In this document: positions 976 through 55,560 of the stretch, piece after piece
Numbering within the stretch: position 1 is the first letter of the stretch
Layout: every line of letters begins with the position of its first letter
Assembly (NCBI GenBank): GCA_951406725.2
Contig: OX597818.1
Location: 108,686,001 to 108,750,000, forward strand
Direction: 5' to 3'
DNA: 64,000 bases
Source of the DNA: Octopus vulgaris
Taxonomy: Eukaryota
The notes under the pieces: generated by a model
What the model was told of the DNA's origin: nothing
What the model saw: the letters and a program-made list of their open reading frames with translations, nothing else
Databases searched by the model: none
Program-made: the position numbers and the translations under genes

Positions 976-1130
976 AGAGAGGCTTATCATTATCAACAAA
1001 AGTCAAATAATGTACATAATTCTTCATCTCACAAATATAGAACTATACCTGAAATAAATTTGACTACTCTTACAAATGAGAATACTAAAAATGAACCTCA
1101 TCACTCTCAAAAATTAAGTTAAAAAAACGG

Positions 1131-1553
1131 AAAAATAATCCAGAATCCTTGTCCGGTACCTGATCAATCCCAGTGGTAGGTGGAATGTGAAGGTGGCTGT
1201 AGAAAATTTAGTAACAGTAATGAATAGTTTATCCTTATCTAATACAAGCCAAAGTTAACAAATTCACCATTCAAAATAGTTACAAGCTAAAGGGAGATAA
1301 TTGAGAAAGACTTGAAAGTCAACATAAGATCGTAATCATGTAATGTAAAGTAAATATAACAAAAAATAATCCAGAATCCTTGTCTGGTACTGACTTGATT
1401 CCAAAATCTAATCAGTTTGTGCCTGTCACGAGGCCAAATATCTCTGAAAGTTTCATCCAAATCCATTGAGCAGTTCTTGAGATATCTTATCCATGGACAA
1501 ACAAACAAACGCAACTGAAAACAATACCTCTGCTTTCACTAAGGCAGAGGTAA
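1131..1553 (-). mobile_element. Helentron/DINE-1-like non-autonomous element fragment
   Basis: Terminal hairpin ACCTCTGC-N10-GCAGAGGT (~1526-1551), then (GTTT)n and an ATCTCAAGAACTGCTCAATGGATTTGGATGAAACTTT block on minus. Internal duplication 1131-1170 / 1363-1400. Confidence 0.5.
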
Positions 1554-1570
1554 TAATAATAATAATAATA

Positions 1571-1778
1571 ATCTTACTACTGGCACAAGGCCTGAAATTT
1601 TGTGGGTGAAGGGGCTAGTTGATTGACCCCAGTGCTTGAATGGTACTTAGTTTATCAACCCAAAAGAATGAAAGCCAAAGTGGACCTTGGTAGAATTTGA
1701 ACTCAGAACATAAACGGTTGGAAGAAATATCACTAAGCATTTTGTCTGACAGGATAACAGTTCTGCCAGCTTACTACC

Positions 1779-1780
<2 letters not shown>
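1571..1780 (-). mobile_element. tRNA-derived SINE family B
   Basis: Matches copies at 8165, 8805, 15375 and 32455 (GCTGGCAGAA head, GAGTTCAAAT B box, CTTTGCCTTTCATCCTTTCGGGGTCGAT-like core). Sits within (TAA)n. Confidence 0.8.
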
Positions 1781-1813
<33 letters not shown>

Positions 1814-4589: not shown

Positions 4590-4747
4590 ACATTATTTAC
4601 ATTTGACGGATATTTGTCCTCATCTTGTTTGTTGTTAACACAATGTTTCGGCTGATATATCCTCCAGCCTTCATCAGGTGTCTTGGGGAAATTTTGAACC
4701 TGGGTTCTCATTCCTAAGGTATTTTTCAATGTTATTATTATTATTAT
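4590..4747 (-). mobile_element. Hammerhead-containing SINE-like element, copy 1 (3' part)
   Basis: Homologous to 25250-25400, 53460-53610 and 55385-55535. The upstream arm TATTCAGGTCACTG reappears at ~5245-5258, beyond the Dong insertion. Confidence 0.85.
4637..4682 (-). ncRNA. Minimal type I hammerhead ribozyme motif
   Basis: GACAC-CTGATGA-A-GGCTG(GAGGATATAT)CAGCC-GAAA-C-ATT-GTGTT. Stems I and II are intact; ATT instead of the consensus GTT is a CpG-type change. Confidence 0.65.
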
Positions 4748-5215
4748 CTTATGTTTGACTTTTGCTTTACATTTGTACAAGCTGGTTCCAAGTCTCACCC
4801 AGAGACCTCAAGAGACAAGTTGGAAGTTCATGTTGGTATTATGCCTAGGGTGCCATATTTTTAGTTTTGTACATAGTGTTCTGGAGAATGTTTAAAAAAC
4901 CATTAGAAAATTATGTTTGTTTTAAAACTTGAGATTACATAGTAAGTATTTTGCGTAGGATATGGGCAGTTCCCATGAGTACTATCTTTTGAATTTCTGC
5001 CATTTTGGGGTTTCCTGGTATCTGAGCTATGTAGCAATCAGCCCCTTTTGCTCTCATTCCTAGGGCACCTGTGACAACAGGTATTGTTTTAGTCTTCTGG
5101 TTCCACATTTTGCTAATTTCTATTTCAAGATCTTTATATTTGCTCAGTTTTTGGTAGGTCTTGACAGATACGTTTATATCGATTGGGACAGTCATATCAA
5201 TGAGGAGGCATGATT
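4748..5215 (-). mobile_element. R4/Dong-clade LINE 3' fragment (restriction-like endonuclease C-terminus plus 3' UTR)
   Basis: LLIDMTVPIDINVSVKTYQKLSKYKDLEIEISKMW...IPVVTGALG...IQKIVLMGTAHILRK matches the R4/Dong RLE end. Flanked on both sides by (TAA)n, the known Dong target. Confidence 0.85.
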
Positions 5216-5554
5216 TTTATTATAATTATTATTATTATAATTATTATTCAGGTCACTGGTTATTTCTATGGACGAGGTTACCATTTCCTAAAGAGGAATT
5301 GTTATGAATTGTAAGCAGTAACAACACTGTGGAATGGATGAGTAGTTTTGTTGGTTTGCAGAGTTAAGTTCAATTCTTCTCTGCAAAAACAGCAAATCAG
5401 ATCAGTTGTCCTGTCTGGCAGAAGATATTAGCCTTGTCTGCTTCATGCCACAGAAACCAGAATTGAAGCACTTGGTCAAAGGAAACATGAACTTCCACAA
5501 GAGGAAACAGTAAGGAGAAATATATGAAGCTTTTGGATTTATACTCATGACTTA

Positions 5555-19695: not shown

Positions 19696-20156
19696 TACAG
19701 TGTACATTTAAACACATAAGAGGTATCCGTCATAGGATTCCTGGCATGCTAGAAGGAACAGCCAAAATCCAAACCACTATTAGGGATAAAACTTCAAAGG
19801 GAATGAAAAATAAAAACATTTACCATCTATCTCCTGAACCATGGTTTCTGACTTTTTTTTAGCAAATAAAATAATTTCCTAGGTGAAGTCTTCATCAGCA
19901 GGTACATCTAGATTAAACATATAAGTATGAGGCAATCCAGCATGTGTCCCGTGCTTATACATTATAATTTTTCAAATCCATTTATTTGCCTAAAAAAAAG
20001 TCAGAAACCATGGTCCAGGAGATAGATGGTAAATGTTTTTATTTTTCATTCCCTTCAAGGTTTTATCCCTAATAGTAGTTTGTACTTTGGCTGTTCCTTC
20101 TAAAGTGCAAGGAATCCTATGACATCTACCTCTTATGTGTTTAAATGTACACTGTA
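19696..20156. mobile_element. Foldback element / MITE, ~175-bp arms, TA-flanked CAGTG termini
   Basis: TA-CAGTGTACATTTAAACACATAAGAGGTA ... TACCTCTTATGTGTTTAAATGTACACTG-TA. Confidence 0.8.
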
Positions 20157-25217: not shown

Positions 25218-25530
25218 CAGTTCTATATTTAAGAGATGAGGAATTATGAACATTATTTACATTTTACAGATATTTGTCCTCATCTTGTTTGTTGTTAACA
25301 CGTTTCAGCTGATATACCCTCCAGCCTTCATCAGGTGTCTTGGGGAAATTTTGAACCTGGATTCTCATTCCTAAGGTATTTTTCAATGTTGTTGTTATTA
25401 TTATTATTATTATTCAGGTCACTGCCATATACCCATGGACATATGGCATAGTGGTTAAGAGTACGGGCTACTAATCCCAAGATTCTGAGTTCGATTCAAG
25501 GCAGTGACCTGAATAATGATAATAATAAGA
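25218..25530. mobile_element. Hammerhead-containing element, copy 2; tRNA-like cassette points away from the ribozyme
   Basis: Hammerhead motif on minus 25297-25339; inverted repeats 25411-25426 / 25500-25515; A box TGGCATAGTGG and B box GAGTTCGATTC on plus. Confidence 0.85.
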
Positions 25531-34320: not shown

Positions 34321-34399
34321 ATGGCTATGTGGTGAGAAGGTTGCTTCACAACCTTGAAACATGGAAACTGAAAGAAGCTTCTGTGTGTGTGTATATATA

Positions 34400-35130
34400 T
34401 ATATGAAGTAAAAGCATCTCTAGTGTTATAAATATTATTAATATATATATATACTTAATGTATAAGCTTTGTGTATTTTCTGGTGGCTGCAATGGCATGG
34501 CAGTTTGTACAAACTCTCAACTTGTCATGTGTTAAAAGACAGACAAGACGACACACCTTCAATCCCATTTCAGAGTAATCGACACTGGAATTTTGCCATT
34601 TTTGTGGCTTATCAACACCACCCAGCCAACAGGGTCGAAGGCAAGCCACTTAGCCAGTCCCAACAACTTATATGCTCATCGCTTGTAAAATCATGAGCTG
34701 GTATGCTCAGAAATTTAACACCCAGCGATTTAAGGGTTTATATTCTCTGCCACGCCATTGCAGCCACCTGAAAATCCACAAAGCACAGACATTAAGTTTA
34801 TGTGTTGTTAATATTTACTACTCTAGATCTGATTTTACTTCATATGTAAATTCTCCCTTAGCTATGCGACTTCCAGACCTACCAGCTCATGATTTTACAA
34901 GCCATGAGCCTATAAGTTGTTGGGACTGGCTAAGTGGCTTGCCTTCGACCCTGGTGGTTGGGTGGTGTTGATAAGCCACAAAAATGGCAAAACTCCAGTG
35001 TCCATTACTCCAGTACTTTACTGAGGTATCTTTTAAAACATGACAATTTGACCTCACTGCTATCCCATTGCAGCCACCAGAAAATACACAAAGCATATAC
35101 ATTAAGTATATGTGTTAATAATATATATAT
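34400..35130. repeat. Compound inverted repeat (A B / A' / B' A')
   Basis: 34450-34703 is inverted at 34880-35110; 34400-34495 is also inverted at 34755-34845. Confidence 0.85.
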
Positions 35131-37685: not shown

Positions 37686-39530
37686 TATGGTTGCATGGTA
37701 AGAATCTTGCTTCCCAACCACATGGTTCCAAGTTCAGTCCCACTGCATGGCACCCTGGACAAGTGTCTTCTACTATAACCTCAGACTGAGCAAAGCCTAG
37801 TGAGTGGATCAGGTAGATTGAAACTGTAAGAAACCCATTATATATTTGTGTGTCTGTGTATAGTTTTCTTGATAAATAATAGAATAAAAAGCCAACCACA
37901 TGGTTCCAAGTTCAGTCCCACTGCGTGGGACCCTGGACAAGTGTCTTCTACTATAACCTCAGACTGTGGATATAACCAGTGGATCTGGTAGATGGAAACT
38001 GAAAGAAGCCCATTATATGTTTGTGTATCTGTGTATAGTTTTCTTGATAAATAATAGAACTAAAAGCTAACCACATGGTTCCATGTTCAGTCCCACTGCG
38101 TAGCACCTTGGAAAAGTGTCTTCTAATATAACCTGAGACTGAGCAAAGCCTAGTGAGTGGATCTGGTAGATGGAAACTGAAAGAAGCCCATTATATGTGT
38201 GTGTGTGTCTGTGTATAGTTTTCTTGATAAATAATAGAATAAAAAGCCAACCACATGGTTCCAAGTTCAGTCCCACTGCGTAGCACCTTGGAAAAGTGTC
38301 TTCTAATATAACCTGAGACTGAGCAAAGCCTAGTGAGTGGATCTGGTAGATGGAAACTGAAAGAAGCCCATTATATGTTTGTGTGTCTGTGTATAGATTT
38401 CTTGATAAATAATAGAACTTAAAGCCAACCACATGGTTCCAAGTTCAGTCCCACTGCGTGGCACCTTGGACAAGTGTCTTCTAATATAACCTCAGACTGA
38501 GCAAAGCCTAGTGAGTGGATCTGGTAGATGGAAACTGAAAGAAGCCCATTATATGTTTGTGTATCTGTGTATAGATTTCTTGATAAATAATAGAACTTAA
38601 AGCCAACCACATGGTTCCCAGTTCAGTCCCACTGCATGGCACCTTGGACAAGTGTCTTCTACTATAACCTCAGACTGAGCAAAGCCTAGTGAGTGGATCT
38701 GGTAGATGGAAACTGAAAGAAGCCCATTATACGTGCGTGTATCTGTGTATAGTTTTCTTGATAAATAATAGAACTAAAAGCCAACCACATAGTTCCAAGT
38801 TCAGTACAACTGCGTGGCACCCTGGACAAGTGTCTTCTAATATAACCTCAGACTGAGCAAAGCCTAGTGAGTGGATCTGGTAGATGGAAACTGAAAGAAG
38901 CCCATTCTACGTGCGTGTGTGTGTTTGTATAGTTTTCTTGATAAATAATAGAACTAAAAGCTAACCACATGGTTCCATATTCAGTCCAACTCTGTGGCAC
39001 CATGGACAAGTGTTTTCTACTGTAACCTCAGACTGAGCAAAGCCTAGTGAGTGGAGATGGTAGATGGAAACTGAAAGAAGCCCATTATATGTGTGTGTGT
39101 GTCTGTGTATAGTTTTCTTGATAAATAATAGAACTAAAAGCCAACCACATAGTTCCAAGTTCAGTCCCACTGCATGGCACCTTGGACAAGTGTCTTCTAC
39201 TGTAACCTCAGACTGAGCAAAGCCTAGTGAGTGGATCTGGTAGATGGAAACTGAAAGAAGCCCATTATATGTGTGTGTCTGTGTATAGTTTTTTTATAAT
39301 GAACTAAAAGACGGGTGATCAAATAGGCAATGATGGCACATTTAGAGTGATCAATGCTTGACTACTAGCGTTGCTGTGTTTACATTCTCATATCTCAGCA
39401 GTTCGGCATAAGAGACCGATAGAATAAGTACCAAGCTTTAAAAAGATAAATGCTGGGATTGACTAAAAATTCAAGGCTGTGCCCCAGCATGGCCACAATC
39501 AAATGTCTAATACAAGTAAAATGGTTAAAG
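37686..39530 (+). repeat. Tandem array of 9 x ~178 bp units derived from the SINE-A 5' half, embedded in one SINE copy
   Basis: Unit starts ~37713, 37891, 38066, 38246, 38424, 38602, 38780, 38960, 39140. Degenerate SINE head only before unit 1; SINE 3' half resumes ~39355. Confidence 0.95.
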
Positions 39531-44448: not shown

Positions 44449-44880
44449 TACTTTGAGGATTGGAGCACAGATTGTTTGCCAATATAATATGACAGTCCTG
44501 GTTTAGGACAACTGTTGCTGTAATTTAGCCCCAGGAGACATCGTCTCCAACTAGCTATACGCCATGATTGGTGTCTTTATATTTTCGAACAAGAGAATCT
44601 AGCACCCCCACTCAGCTCAAAACAATATCTGTGAACTGTGATTTCTAGGTTATTCTAGGTCATCAGCACAGAACAATTATTCTGTGCTGATGAAGTGAAA
44701 TAACCTGAAAATCGCGATACACAGATATTGTTTTGAGCTGAGATGGGGTGCTAGATTCCCTTGTTCGAAAATATACGGGCAAAGACGTGTCATATAGCCA
44801 GCTGGGGCTAAATTACAGCAACATTCATCCTAAACCAGGACCACCATGTTATGTTGGCAAACAATCTGTACTCCAAAGTA
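44449..44880. repeat. ~430-bp palindrome with a hammerhead motif in each arm
   Basis: Arms pair to within a few nt of the centre (~44676); hammerhead-like motifs at 44681-44725 (+) and 44628-44672 (-). Confidence 0.9.
44681..44725 (+). ncRNA. Minimal hammerhead-like motif
   Basis: TCTGTG-CTGATGA-(13 nt)-GAAA-ATCGCGA-TA-CACAGA. Perfect 6-bp stem I and palindromic stem III region; stem II poorly paired. Confidence 0.55.
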
Positions 44881-45494: not shown

Positions 45495-45800
45495 GGAGCA
45501 CTCTGTCAGTTACGACAACAAGGGTCCCAGCTGATACGATCAACGGAACAGCTTGCTCGTGAAAGTAACATGCAAGTGGCTGAGAACTCCACAGACACAT
45601 GTACCCTTAACGTAGTTCTCGGGGTAAATTCAGCATGACACAGAGTGTGACAAGGCTGGTCCTTTTAATTGCAGGTACAACTCATGATGGAAGTACTGTG
45701 AAATAAAGTGTCTTGCTCGAGGACACAACGTGTCACTGGGAACTGAACTCACGACCTTACGATTGTGAGCCGAATGCCCTAACCACTAAGCCATGCACTT
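45495..45800 (-). mobile_element. tRNA-derived SINE family C
   Basis: A box TGGCTTAGTGG, B box GAGTTCAGTTCC, GTGTCCTCGAGCAAGACACTTTATTTCAC box; related pieces at ~9425-9600 and 63945-63990. Confidence 0.75.
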
Positions 45801-53459: not shown

Positions 53460-53735
53460 AATTATTTACATTTGATGGATATTTGTCCTCATCTTGTTTG
53501 TTGTTAACACAACATTTTGGCTGATAAACCTTCCAGCCTTCATCACATGTCTTGGGGAAATTTCGAACCTGGGTTCTCATTCCTAAGGTATTTTTAGATG
53601 CTATTATTATTATTCAGGTCACTGCCTGGAATCAAACTCGGAATCCTGGGGTTAGTAGCCCATGCTCTTAACCACTATGCCATATGCCGACGGGCATATG
53701 GCAGTGATGTGAATAATAATAATAATAATAATAAA
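53460..53735 (-). mobile_element. Hammerhead-containing element, copy 3; tRNA-like cassette points toward the ribozyme
   Basis: Degenerate hammerhead 53506-53551; inverted repeats 53611-53626 / 53700-53715; cassette 53627-53699 on minus. Confidence 0.85.
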
Positions 53736-55108: not shown

Positions 55109-55204
55109 ATTATCATTATTGTTTTTTTCTATCAGTAATTACAAATAGAACAGGTTGAATTGCTTCTTTCCAAGGCAGCGCTCTCAGTGGCCACTGGTAG
55201 TAGT

Positions 55205-55384
55205 AAACAAAACATAATTTTCTTGTTTTCTTAAACATTCTCTAGAACAACACTATGTAAAAAACCCAAATATATGGCACCCTAGGCATAACACCAACAT
55301 GAACTTCCAACTTATTGTCTCTTGATGTCTCTGGGTGAGACTTGGAGCCAACTTGTACAAATACAAAGCAAAAGTCAAACATAA
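55205..55384 (+). mobile_element. R4/Dong 3' UTR, 5'-truncated
   Basis: Matches the reverse complement of 4748-4925. Confidence 0.8.
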
Positions 55385-55560
55385 AATAATAATAATATCT
55401 AAAAATACCTTAGAAATGAGAAACCAGGTTTGAAATTTCCCTAAGACACCTGATGAAGGGTGGAGGGTATATCAGACGAAACATTATGCTAACAACAAAC
55501 AAGATGAGGACAAATATCTGTCAAATGTAAATAATTCCTCGTCTCTTAAATATGGAACTG
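55385..55560 (+). mobile_element. Hammerhead-containing element, copy 4 (3' part)
   Basis: GACAC-CTGATGA-AGGGTGGAGGGTATATCAGAC-GAAA-CATTATGCT at 55445-55490. Confidence 0.85.

What the first reader, a model, noticed from the sequence alone, without database searches (positions are those of the whole stretch)
4590..4747. SINE-like family carrying a minimal, probably dimer-dependent hammerhead ribozyme (4 copies)
Seen: copies at 4637(-), 25297(-), 53506(-) and 55445(+) give the consensus GACAC CTGATGA A GGCTG-GAGGGTATAT-CAGCC GAAA C GTT GTGTT. Stem I is GACAC/GTGTT, stem II GGCTG/CAGCC, the cleavage triplet GUU, and stem III is reduced to the loop-less palindrome AACGTT. Each copy is damaged differently. 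Established: minimal type I hammerheads with palindromic stem III occur in Penelope-like pseudo-LTRs and can cleave as dimers. Unusual here: in copies 2 and 3 the module is linked through (TAA)n to a tRNA-derived A/B-box head. Inference: a Pol III SINE-retrozyme hybrid mobilised by Penelope machinery. Four copies in 64 kb imply very high copy number.
Basis: partly seen in the sequence, partly recalled or inferred. Interest (0 to 1): 0.8.

Follow-up and report, generated by a model that had tools for sequence, protein, structure and literature searches.

The report
Octopus SINE-like parasite of Penelope retroelements
A roughly 290-base octopus repeat, likely present in about 100,000 copies, joins a tRNA-like promoter head to a hammerhead-ribozyme-bearing end and carries the insertion scars of Penelope-type retroelements, so it is likely a SINE-like element copied by Penelope enzymes rather than by the LINE enzymes that known SINEs use.

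Summary
The four copies and the minimal type I hammerhead are real. Reads and contigs from four public runs restore an intact core as the family majority. One correction: the A/B-box head is in sense only in copy 3. In copy 2 it points away, head-to-head. Copies 1 and 4 instead have the 3' end of a retrotransposon (LINE) in the TAA linker. Penelope-type mobilisation gains direct support: two 3' ends 32 nt apart (the Penelope 'tail'), no target-site duplications, and 10 of 15 listed joints show variably truncated inverted module pieces abutting a fixed head start. Best reading (0.62): one tRNA-headed, non-coding element copied by Penelope-like enzymes, with the hammerhead an inherited and probably mostly silent passenger. 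Not shown: Pol III transcription, cleavage (no read-end pile-up), dimer dependence, an autonomous partner, and the genome-wide forward head-to-module link (the tool masked the linker). Minimal hammerheads in Penelope ends, and a Pol III SINE-like element with a hammerhead (schistosome SMalpha), are known. A tRNA-headed family with Penelope insertion scars was not found in five literature searches; Repbase and Dfam were not searchable.

The parts
4590..4731 (-). Copy 1 module (Penelope-like end), stops at the short 3' end, no tail
4637..4682 (-). Copy 1 minimal type I hammerhead; one defect (CpG change in the stem III palindrome)
4732..4746 (-). Copy 1 (TAA)n linker, 3' side of the LINE insertion
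4747..5216 (-). 5'-truncated LINE piece: last 93 codons (4935-5216) of an RT-bearing ORF plus 3' UTR; probably Dong/R4 type (clade label inferred); sits between two TAA tracts
5217..5258 (-). Copy 1: last 12 nt of the head (5247-5258) plus (TAA)n, upstream of the LINE piece
25218..25390 (-). Copy 2 module with the full 32-nt tail (25218-25249)
25297..25339 (-). Copy 2 hammerhead; cleavage triplet deleted in this copy
25391..25434 (-). Copy 2 (TAA)n linker plus short arm (about 25413-25434), joined in sense to the module
25437..25513 (+). Copy 2 tRNA-like head, opposite strand to the module; A box 25444-25454, B box 25487-25498; followed by a degenerate TAA tract and no module
53461..53600 (-). 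Copy 3 module, short 3' end; hammerhead 53506-53551 with C3 and G12 changed
53602..53688 (-). Copy 3 (TAA)n linker (53602-53613) and tRNA-like head in sense (53613-53688); A box 53672-53682, B box 53628-53639
53692..53732 (+). Copy 3 inverted short arm plus TAA tract (53712-53732), head-to-head with the main head
55204..55384 (+). 3' UTR piece of the same LINE family (87% to the piece in copy 1); no TAA tract at its 5' junction
55385..55560 (+). Copy 4 (TAA)n plus module with tail; hammerhead 55445-55490, several defects
1005..1044 (+). Tail-only fragment of the same family (extreme 5' truncation)

Best explanation
[quoted passage not shown] Shown: the anatomy, the intact majority hammerhead, two 3' ends 32 nt apart, 5'-truncated copies, inverted truncated module pieces joined to the head start, and no target-site duplications. 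Inferred: (1) Pol III reads about 290 nt from the head through the module; (2) the Penelope enzyme binds the 3' module and starts reverse transcription at one of two sites, giving copies with or without the tail; (3) a second cDNA primed from the other target strand gives the inverted arm, and where it is primed on the internal UAA tract it gives a head-only arm, which would explain copies 2 and 3; (4) the hammerhead was inherited with the Penelope end and is probably inactive as a monomer, needing a second RNA or the protein; (5) a TAA-targeting LINE later inserted into the linker (copy 1), and copy 4 is either a read-through chimera copied from the module end or a later deletion.
For: Tail: loose ends pile at 25218 (1138 and 1052 reads; 214 and 228 contigs) and at 25250 (820 and 573 reads; 205 and 225 contigs). 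In the window, copies 1 and 3 stop at the short end; copies 2, 4 and the fragment reach the long end. A 30-40 bp optional tail is described as unique to Penelope-like elements and as the distance between two RT start sites. Inversion: 10 of 15 joints listed in table 5, plus 4 further ones among 12 rows of table 5c, join an inverted module piece of variable length to the head start (25435-25449; one rejoins further in, through diverged head letters). Five of the 10 occur in both organisms' contigs. None of the listed joints joins head and module in the other orientation. An adjacent inverted 5'-truncated copy is a Penelope hallmark. Link in the window: 3 of 4 modules have the head's 3' end plus TAA upstream in sense, and all 3 loci with a head end lie next to a module. 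Target: the letters after the long end lean to TATTAT in all four runs (agreement only 0.43-0.45); a purified Penelope-like enzyme cuts at ATT. No duplication longer than 6 nt was found at 5 of 5 element insertions. Promoter: A and B boxes fit the type 2 consensus quoted, with a 33-nt spacer. None of five sense-strand pieces holds TTTT, while only 16-17% of 290-nt windows lack it. Hammerhead: it matches the published minimal consensus, with the same core-to-triplet letters as two limpet examples. Penelope-like elements make up 6.83% of the O. vulgaris assembly, with 30 recently active Penelope families. A hammerhead was dispensable for insertion and needed protein in vitro.
Against: The read tool masked the TAA linker (25381-25421), so the forward head-to-module link was not counted genome-wide. 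164 joints of table 5 and 129 rows of 5c were hidden. The shorter sides of the contig joints are only 20-30 letters, a length the tool flags as unreliable. Summed contig depth over the head is only 8-10% of that over the module (about 45% in RNA reads), so most copies lack it. Copy 2's full head and copy 3's short arm have no module behind them, and copies 2 and 3 share an identical short-arm junction, which looks inherited rather than formed anew. TAA tracts attract other elements here too. RNA reads come equally from both orientations, so Pol III transcription is not shown. Neither ARAGORN nor Rfam calls the head a tRNA. No autonomous partner was found. The three long-ended pieces in the window are not followed by TATTAT.
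Confidence: 0.62

Rival explanations
1. The module is an ordinary Penelope-end remnant (solo pseudo-LTR or its non-autonomous derivative) that starts with a TAA tract. The head, with its short inverted arm, is a separate TAA-seeking element that lands there in either orientation, or is only a captured passenger that does not drive transcription.
For: The head unit is the same 133-bp structure in opposite orientations in copies 2 and 3. Head depth is about a tenth of module depth in contigs. A LINE and another SINE also sit in TAA tracts. Dispersed minimal hammerheads from truncated Penelope-like elements are common in animals.
Against: At least 10 listed joints put the head start directly on inverted module pieces with no TAA between, all in one orientation (sign test p 0.002 if independent, which they are not fully). 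The unit's two flanks are TTA and TAA, inverted rather than a split target, and no left-over target tract is seen. All 3 head-end loci in the window lie next to modules, and none at the 4 other TAA loci (1551/1780, 37171, 44296, 46472).
Confidence: 0.22
2. The module is the 3' end of the TAA-associated LINE, and the element is a classical SINE that shares its 3' tail with that LINE and is copied by it.
For: Both LINE 3' pieces in the window (2 of 2) run straight into TAA plus module, and copy 4 has no TAA at the LINE's 5' junction. Dong-R4 LINEs are recently active in O. vulgaris.
Against: In copy 1 the LINE piece lies between two TAA tracts, with the head's end upstream, as expected for an insertion into the linker. 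No target remnant follows the module. The optional tail and inverted arm are Penelope features. Dong and R4 carry a different, HDV-like ribozyme at the 5' end. With 4 of about 9 TAA loci being linkers, 2 of 2 is not surprising.
Confidence: 0.08
3. It is a non-LTR retrozyme: tandem copies give multimeric RNA that the hammerheads cut into monomers, which circularise and are reinserted.
For: Unit length about 290 nt and a type I hammerhead fit animal retrozymes. The majority core is intact. Retrozyme families can be mostly monomeric.
Against: No tandem copy in the window. No tail-to-head joint among the 15 listed; the only go-back inside the module there spans 46 nt in one contig. No pile-up of read ends. 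Retrozymes are reported to lack promoters and are defined by tandem units. Paired hammerheads in head-to-head insertions lie on opposite strands and could not pair in cis.
Confidence: 0.08

Closest known systems
Minimal hammerheads in pseudo-LTRs of metazoan Penelope-like elements (Cervera and de la Pena 2014, PMC4209133)
   Same: Type I core, unpaired base before a G-C-opened stem II, 4-5 bp stem I, no helix III beyond a palindrome, U-rich 5' and AU-rich 3' flanks; mostly dispersed single motifs, some as close pairs on opposite strands.
   Different: Here the motif sits behind a tRNA-like A/B-box head in one family of roughly 100,000 copies; no RT-endonuclease ORF is attached. Octopus is not mentioned in the supplement file searched.
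[quoted passage not shown] 2021, PMC8557442; Frangieh et al. 2024, PMC11167929)
   Same: Heavy 5' truncation, adjacent inverted truncated copy, optional 30-40 bp tail, AT-rich targets, no RNA-seq ends at the hammerhead site.
   Different: No partial tandem (pseudo-LTR) seen among listed joints; non-coding; the putative promoter is Pol III type. Non-autonomous relatives such as MRC1 are described without such a head in the passages read.
Schistosome SMalpha / Sj-alpha SINE-like elements (Ferbeyre et al. 1998; Laha et al. 2000; seen only through PMC6765202 and PMC8490949)
   Same: Pol III promoter followed by a type I hammerhead in a high-copy short repeat.
   Different: SMalpha is often tandem and its ribozyme is active in cis and trans. 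Here copies are dispersed and the ribozyme is the minimal form. The passages read do not name SMalpha's partner enzyme or Penelope-type junctions.
Animal non-LTR retrozymes (Cervera and de la Pena 2020, PMC7229834; Li et al. 2026 preprint 10.64898/2026.07.22.740005)
   Same: Short non-coding unit with a type I hammerhead; proposed Penelope origin and mobilisation.
   Different: Defined by tandem units and circular RNA, and said to lack promoters; here monomers with A/B boxes, and no circle-type joint listed.
tRNA-derived SINEs (SINEBase definition, PMC3531059); octopus OR1, OR2 and OK families (Ohshima and Okada 1994, title only)
   Same: Under 700 bp, head-body layout, A and B boxes, very high copy number.
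   Different: By definition SINEs use a LINE's enzyme and end in a simple-repeat tail with target duplications; here the simple repeat is internal, and the ends look Penelope-made. Whether this family is one of the 1994 octopus families could not be checked.

Membership tests
Minimal type I hammerhead (Penelope type) | CUGANGA and GAAA core, NUH triplet, stems I and II, palindrome in place of helix III | tested here: met
   Met by the family majority in four runs; no single window copy is intact; 36 of 40 cells paired, no covariation; fits the published consensus.
Minimal type I hammerhead (Penelope type) | Self-cleavage, as a dimer or with protein help | not testable with these tools
   No pile-up of RNA read ends in two runs, which is also the case for an active Penelope-like element. 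Copy 1's best monomer fold buries the core.
Penelope-mobilised element | Optional 30-40 bp 3' tail | tested here: met
   Ends at 25218 and 25250 in all four runs; 3 long and 2 short ends in the window. Copy 2's private changes at 25248-25249 may inflate the short-end count.
Penelope-mobilised element | Inverted 5'-truncated copy abutting the 5' end | tested here: met
   10 of 15 listed joints plus 4 in table 5c; head-to-head arrangement in copies 2 and 3. Most joints were hidden and the sides are short.
Penelope-mobilised element | Partial tandem forming a pseudo-LTR | tested here: inconclusive
   None in the window or among 15 listed joints; 164 not shown.
Penelope-mobilised element | 3' end shared with an autonomous RT plus GIY-YIG element | tested here: inconclusive
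   The 41-codon frame opening inside the hammerhead found no protein relative; no genome was available for a DNA search.
tRNA-derived SINE | Internal type 2 Pol III promoter (A and B boxes 30-35 nt apart), no internal TTTT | tested here: met
   Boxes with a 33-nt spacer in 2 of 2 heads; 0 of 5 sense pieces hold TTTT (consensus).
tRNA-derived SINE | Head homologous to a tRNA | tested here: inconclusive
   No ARAGORN or Rfam tRNA call; weak match (E 0.009) to another head at 45732-45795 that scores 23.9 bits, below threshold, with Rfam tRNA.
tRNA-derived SINE | Transcribed by Pol III | not testable with these tools
   RNA reads are plentiful (0.07% of records) but equal in both orientations.
tRNA-derived SINE | LINE-type ends: simple-repeat 3' tail and target-site duplication | tested here: not met
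   Two defined 3' ends, the simple repeat is internal, and no duplication over 6 nt at 5 of 5 insertions.
Non-LTR retrozyme | Tandem units each with a hammerhead; circular RNA | tested here: inconclusive
   No tandem in the window and no tail-to-head joint among those listed; hidden joints and library type limit the test.

The most novel reading that the evidence does not exclude
This is a tRNA-headed, Pol III-driven SINE-like family that parasitises Penelope-like reverse transcriptase and endonuclease instead of a LINE, has reached about 100,000 copies in several octopus species, and has not been described. It would add a new partner class to the SINE definition and supply an abundant natural template, with its own promoter, for testing what the Penelope hammerhead does.
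Probability: 0.42. Interest if true: 0.72.

Novelty: new variant of a known kind. Interest (0 to 1): 0.55.

Why it matters
SINEs are defined as Pol III transcripts copied by LINE enzymes, and Penelope-dependent retrozymes are said to lack promoters. A family that has a Pol III-type head and Penelope-made ends would bridge the two. The role of the minimal hammerhead in Penelope elements is still open. A short, defined, very abundant RNA makes it easy to test monomer, trans-dimer and protein-assisted cleavage, and to map the smallest RNA a Penelope enzyme needs. It would also mean that part of the large octopus SINE fraction (11.6% of the O. vulgaris assembly) may be filed under the wrong partner.

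Tried and rejected
Rfam: no hammerhead or tRNA hit at the copies; ARAGORN found 0 genes. No whole genome is held. Two 27-nt patterns found 0 matches in metagenome and prokaryote collections, and the first also 0 in viral contigs. No indexed holder was on record as RNA; the RNA runs came by species label. The idea that the ATG inside the core starts a Penelope ORF: a 41-codon frame with one stop exists in copy 4, is broken again in copies 2 and 3, and has no protein relative; the ATG is part of the core anyway, so this was dropped. A MITE reading of the head unit was rejected because its flanks are inverted TTA/TAA tracts, not a duplicated target. The LINE peptide had no Pfam or PDB match alone; it was identified through full-length relatives. 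Single-copy folds are not better than shuffles (z from -1.7 to 0.4), and copy 1's dimer fold is not the active form. One search used a mis-registered structure and is superseded. Microhomology at the inverted joints is only suggestive: GG within 4 nt at 7 of 13 against 26% background. Literature: searches found no paper describing a tRNA-headed, Penelope-mobilised family; Lunse et al. 2017 was not held. Earlier scan notes held nothing on this sequence or genome.

Full report
Source. No genome is held for this window. The LINE peptide in copy 1 has its best named match, 85% over the whole query, in Octopus bimaculoides. Twenty public runs from three coded organisms hold part of the repeat. I therefore treat the window as octopus; this is an inference from one named protein hit.

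Observation. Four copies of the module are present where stated, 87-96% alike, plus a 40-nt tail-only fragment at 1005-1044. No window copy has an intact hammerhead, and Rfam does not call any of them. Laying two RNA runs and two contig sets on copy 2 restored the core: stem II is repaired in 71-77% of RNA reads, the deleted triplet is put back in all four runs, and about 36% of RNA reads show CpG decay of the palindrome. This majority form fits the published minimal consensus for Penelope-type hammerheads (Cervera and de la Pena 2014, PMC4209133; parts 1-2 of 4 of the text and supplement passages read). Stems I and II pair in 36 of 40 cells, with no compensatory change in four sequences.

Correction on the head. 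A 133-bp unit is shared by copies 2 and 3 at 89% identity but in opposite orientation to the module. It consists of a TTA tract, a ~22-nt short arm, a small hairpin centre, the ~77-nt A/B-box head and a TAA tract. The short arm is an inverted piece that joins the head's first and last letters. In copy 3 the head is in sense with the module. In copy 2 the short arm is in sense and the head points away. The boxes fit the type 2 Pol III consensus quoted by Goubert et al. 2022 (PMC8969392, passages) with a 33-nt spacer, and none of five sense-strand pieces holds TTTT, against 16-17% of 290-nt windows. A tRNA origin is likely but not shown.

Upstream of the TAA tract in copies 1 and 4 lies the 3' end of a retrotransposon. 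Its last 93 codons match the C-termini of ~1200-residue reverse-transcriptase proteins (62 hits among 114 candidates). I read the C-terminus as a restriction-like endonuclease and the family as Dong/R4; both labels rest on recall, on the TAA flanks, on Dong's TAA junction (PMC3774820, passages) and on active Dong-R4 families in O. vulgaris (PMC13282606, passages; PMC8967140, passages). In copy 1 the piece sits between two TAA tracts with the head's last 12 nt upstream, so it most likely inserted into the linker. In copy 4 there is no TAA at its 5' junction, which is unexplained: a read-through chimera copied from the module end, or a deletion.

Evidence for Penelope-type copying. First, there are two 3' ends 32 nt apart. 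Loose ends pile at 25218 and 25250 in all four runs, and the window has three long and two short ends. Craig et al. 2021 (PMC8557442, section 6 and passages) describe an optional 30-40 bp tail. Frangieh et al. 2024 (PMC11167929, parts 1-2 of 4) show it equals the distance between two RT start sites. Second, 10 of the 15 joints listed in table 5, and 4 more among the 12 rows of table 5c, join an inverted module piece of variable length to a nearly fixed head start; 5 of the 10 occur in both organisms. No listed joint has the other orientation. This is the adjacent inverted 5'-truncated copy of Penelope insertions, and it ties head and module to one template without any TAA between them. Limits: 164 and 129 rows were hidden, contig sides are 20-30 letters, and the breakpoints cluster into about nine groups. 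Third, no target duplication over 6 nt was found at 5 of 5 insertions. Fourth, flanks after the long end lean to TATTAT in the reads (low agreement), though not in the three window examples; the purified enzyme prefers ATT.

Copy number and expression. Four copies in 64 kb is 62 per Mb. Summed contig depth divided by single-locus depth gives roughly 0.8-2.1 x 10^5; the tool warns that this is not a copy number, so take it as an order of magnitude. RNA reads are abundant (9714 of 12.9 million; 8257 of 12.0 million), equal in both orientations, and show no pile-up of ends. They probably come mostly from copies inside longer transcripts, and say nothing for or against Pol III or cleavage. Head depth is about 45% of module depth in RNA and 8-10% in contigs.

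Mechanism. Most likely (0.62), Pol III makes a ~290-nt RNA, and a Penelope-like protein recognises its 3' module, nicks AT-rich DNA and primes cDNA at one of two sites. A second cDNA from the other strand forms the inverted arm. The hammerhead came with the captured Penelope end. Copy 1's best monomer fold buries the core, single minimal motifs did not cleave in vitro, and in the lizard element the hammerhead needed protein and was dispensable for insertion. So I expect little cleavage in monomers; dimer dependence is an analogy, not a result. The identical short-arm junction in copies 2 and 3 is the main loose end. It could come from recurrent joining at a short microhomology, or mark a separate head unit, which is the leading rival (0.22). 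A LINE partner (0.08) and a circular retrozyme (0.08) fit worse.

Comparison with what is known. Minimal hammerheads in Penelope ends are known. So are Penelope-derived retrozymes (PMC7229834, passages; PMC7761336, passages; preprint 10.64898/2026.07.22.740005, parts 1-2 of 5) and a Pol III SINE-like element with a hammerhead in schistosomes (through PMC6765202 and PMC8490949, passages). SINEBase defines SINEs as LINE-dependent (PMC3531059, passages), and the LINE-type end test fails here, so I do not file it as a SINE proper; it works like one at the 5' end and like a Penelope element at the 3' end. Searches found no description of such a family, and the O. vulgaris repeat paper does not mention ribozymes in its text or held supplement. 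The library lacks most subscription papers. Repbase, Dfam, Ohshima and Okada 1994 and Lunse et al. 2017 were not seen (titles only). PMC10886601 and PMC4918200 (passages) added nothing. An earlier scan note on a one-off SINE-Penelope join in another genome is a caution; here the join recurs at many loci in two organisms.

Verdict. Real feature, partly misdescribed; new variant of a known kind; interest 0.55. The most novel reading, an undescribed Penelope-dependent SINE-like family, has probability about 0.42 and would deserve about 0.72.

Noticed in passing
window 44460-44880: Head-to-head inverted pair of ~200-nt arms (77-87% alike), each starting just before its own hammerhead-like core (44642-44666 on -, 44687-44710 on +). 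Looks like a second, unrelated Penelope-type minimal-hammerhead insertion; single locus in the window.
   Followed up: partly
window 19696-20156: Inverted pair (81% alike) with a hammerhead-like core at 19875-19898(-) near its centre; possibly a third Penelope-type insertion.
   Followed up: partly
window 34395-35129: Complex inverted and direct duplication; weak Rfam HH9 hammerhead match at 34950-35031 (21 bits, far below threshold).
   Followed up: no
window 55204-55560: LINE 3' UTR fused through TAA to a module with full tail and no TAA at the 5' junction: possible LINE-module chimera copied from the module end.
   Followed up: partly
window 37803-39351: Tandem array of ~178-nt units related to another abundant SINE-like family in the window (families D3, D4, D7).
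   Followed up: no
window 1551-1812: Another SINE-like repeat lying between two TAA tracts, showing that TAA tracts attract several elements here.
   Followed up: no
window 45732-45795 (-): A different tRNA-like head, weakly similar to this family's head (E 0.009) and to the Rfam tRNA model (23.9 bits).
   Followed up: partly
window 53565-53580 (-), and the same place in the other copies: A second B-box-like motif inside the module, just upstream of the hammerhead, without a matching A box; possibly a relic of an older head (seen by eye).
   Followed up: no
window 25218-25290 (-): A 9-bp stem pairs the middle of the module with the tail, and the short 3' end falls in its loop; a candidate recognition structure (z -1.45, not significant). 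A 9-nt unit at the short end is missing in copy 4.
   Followed up: partly
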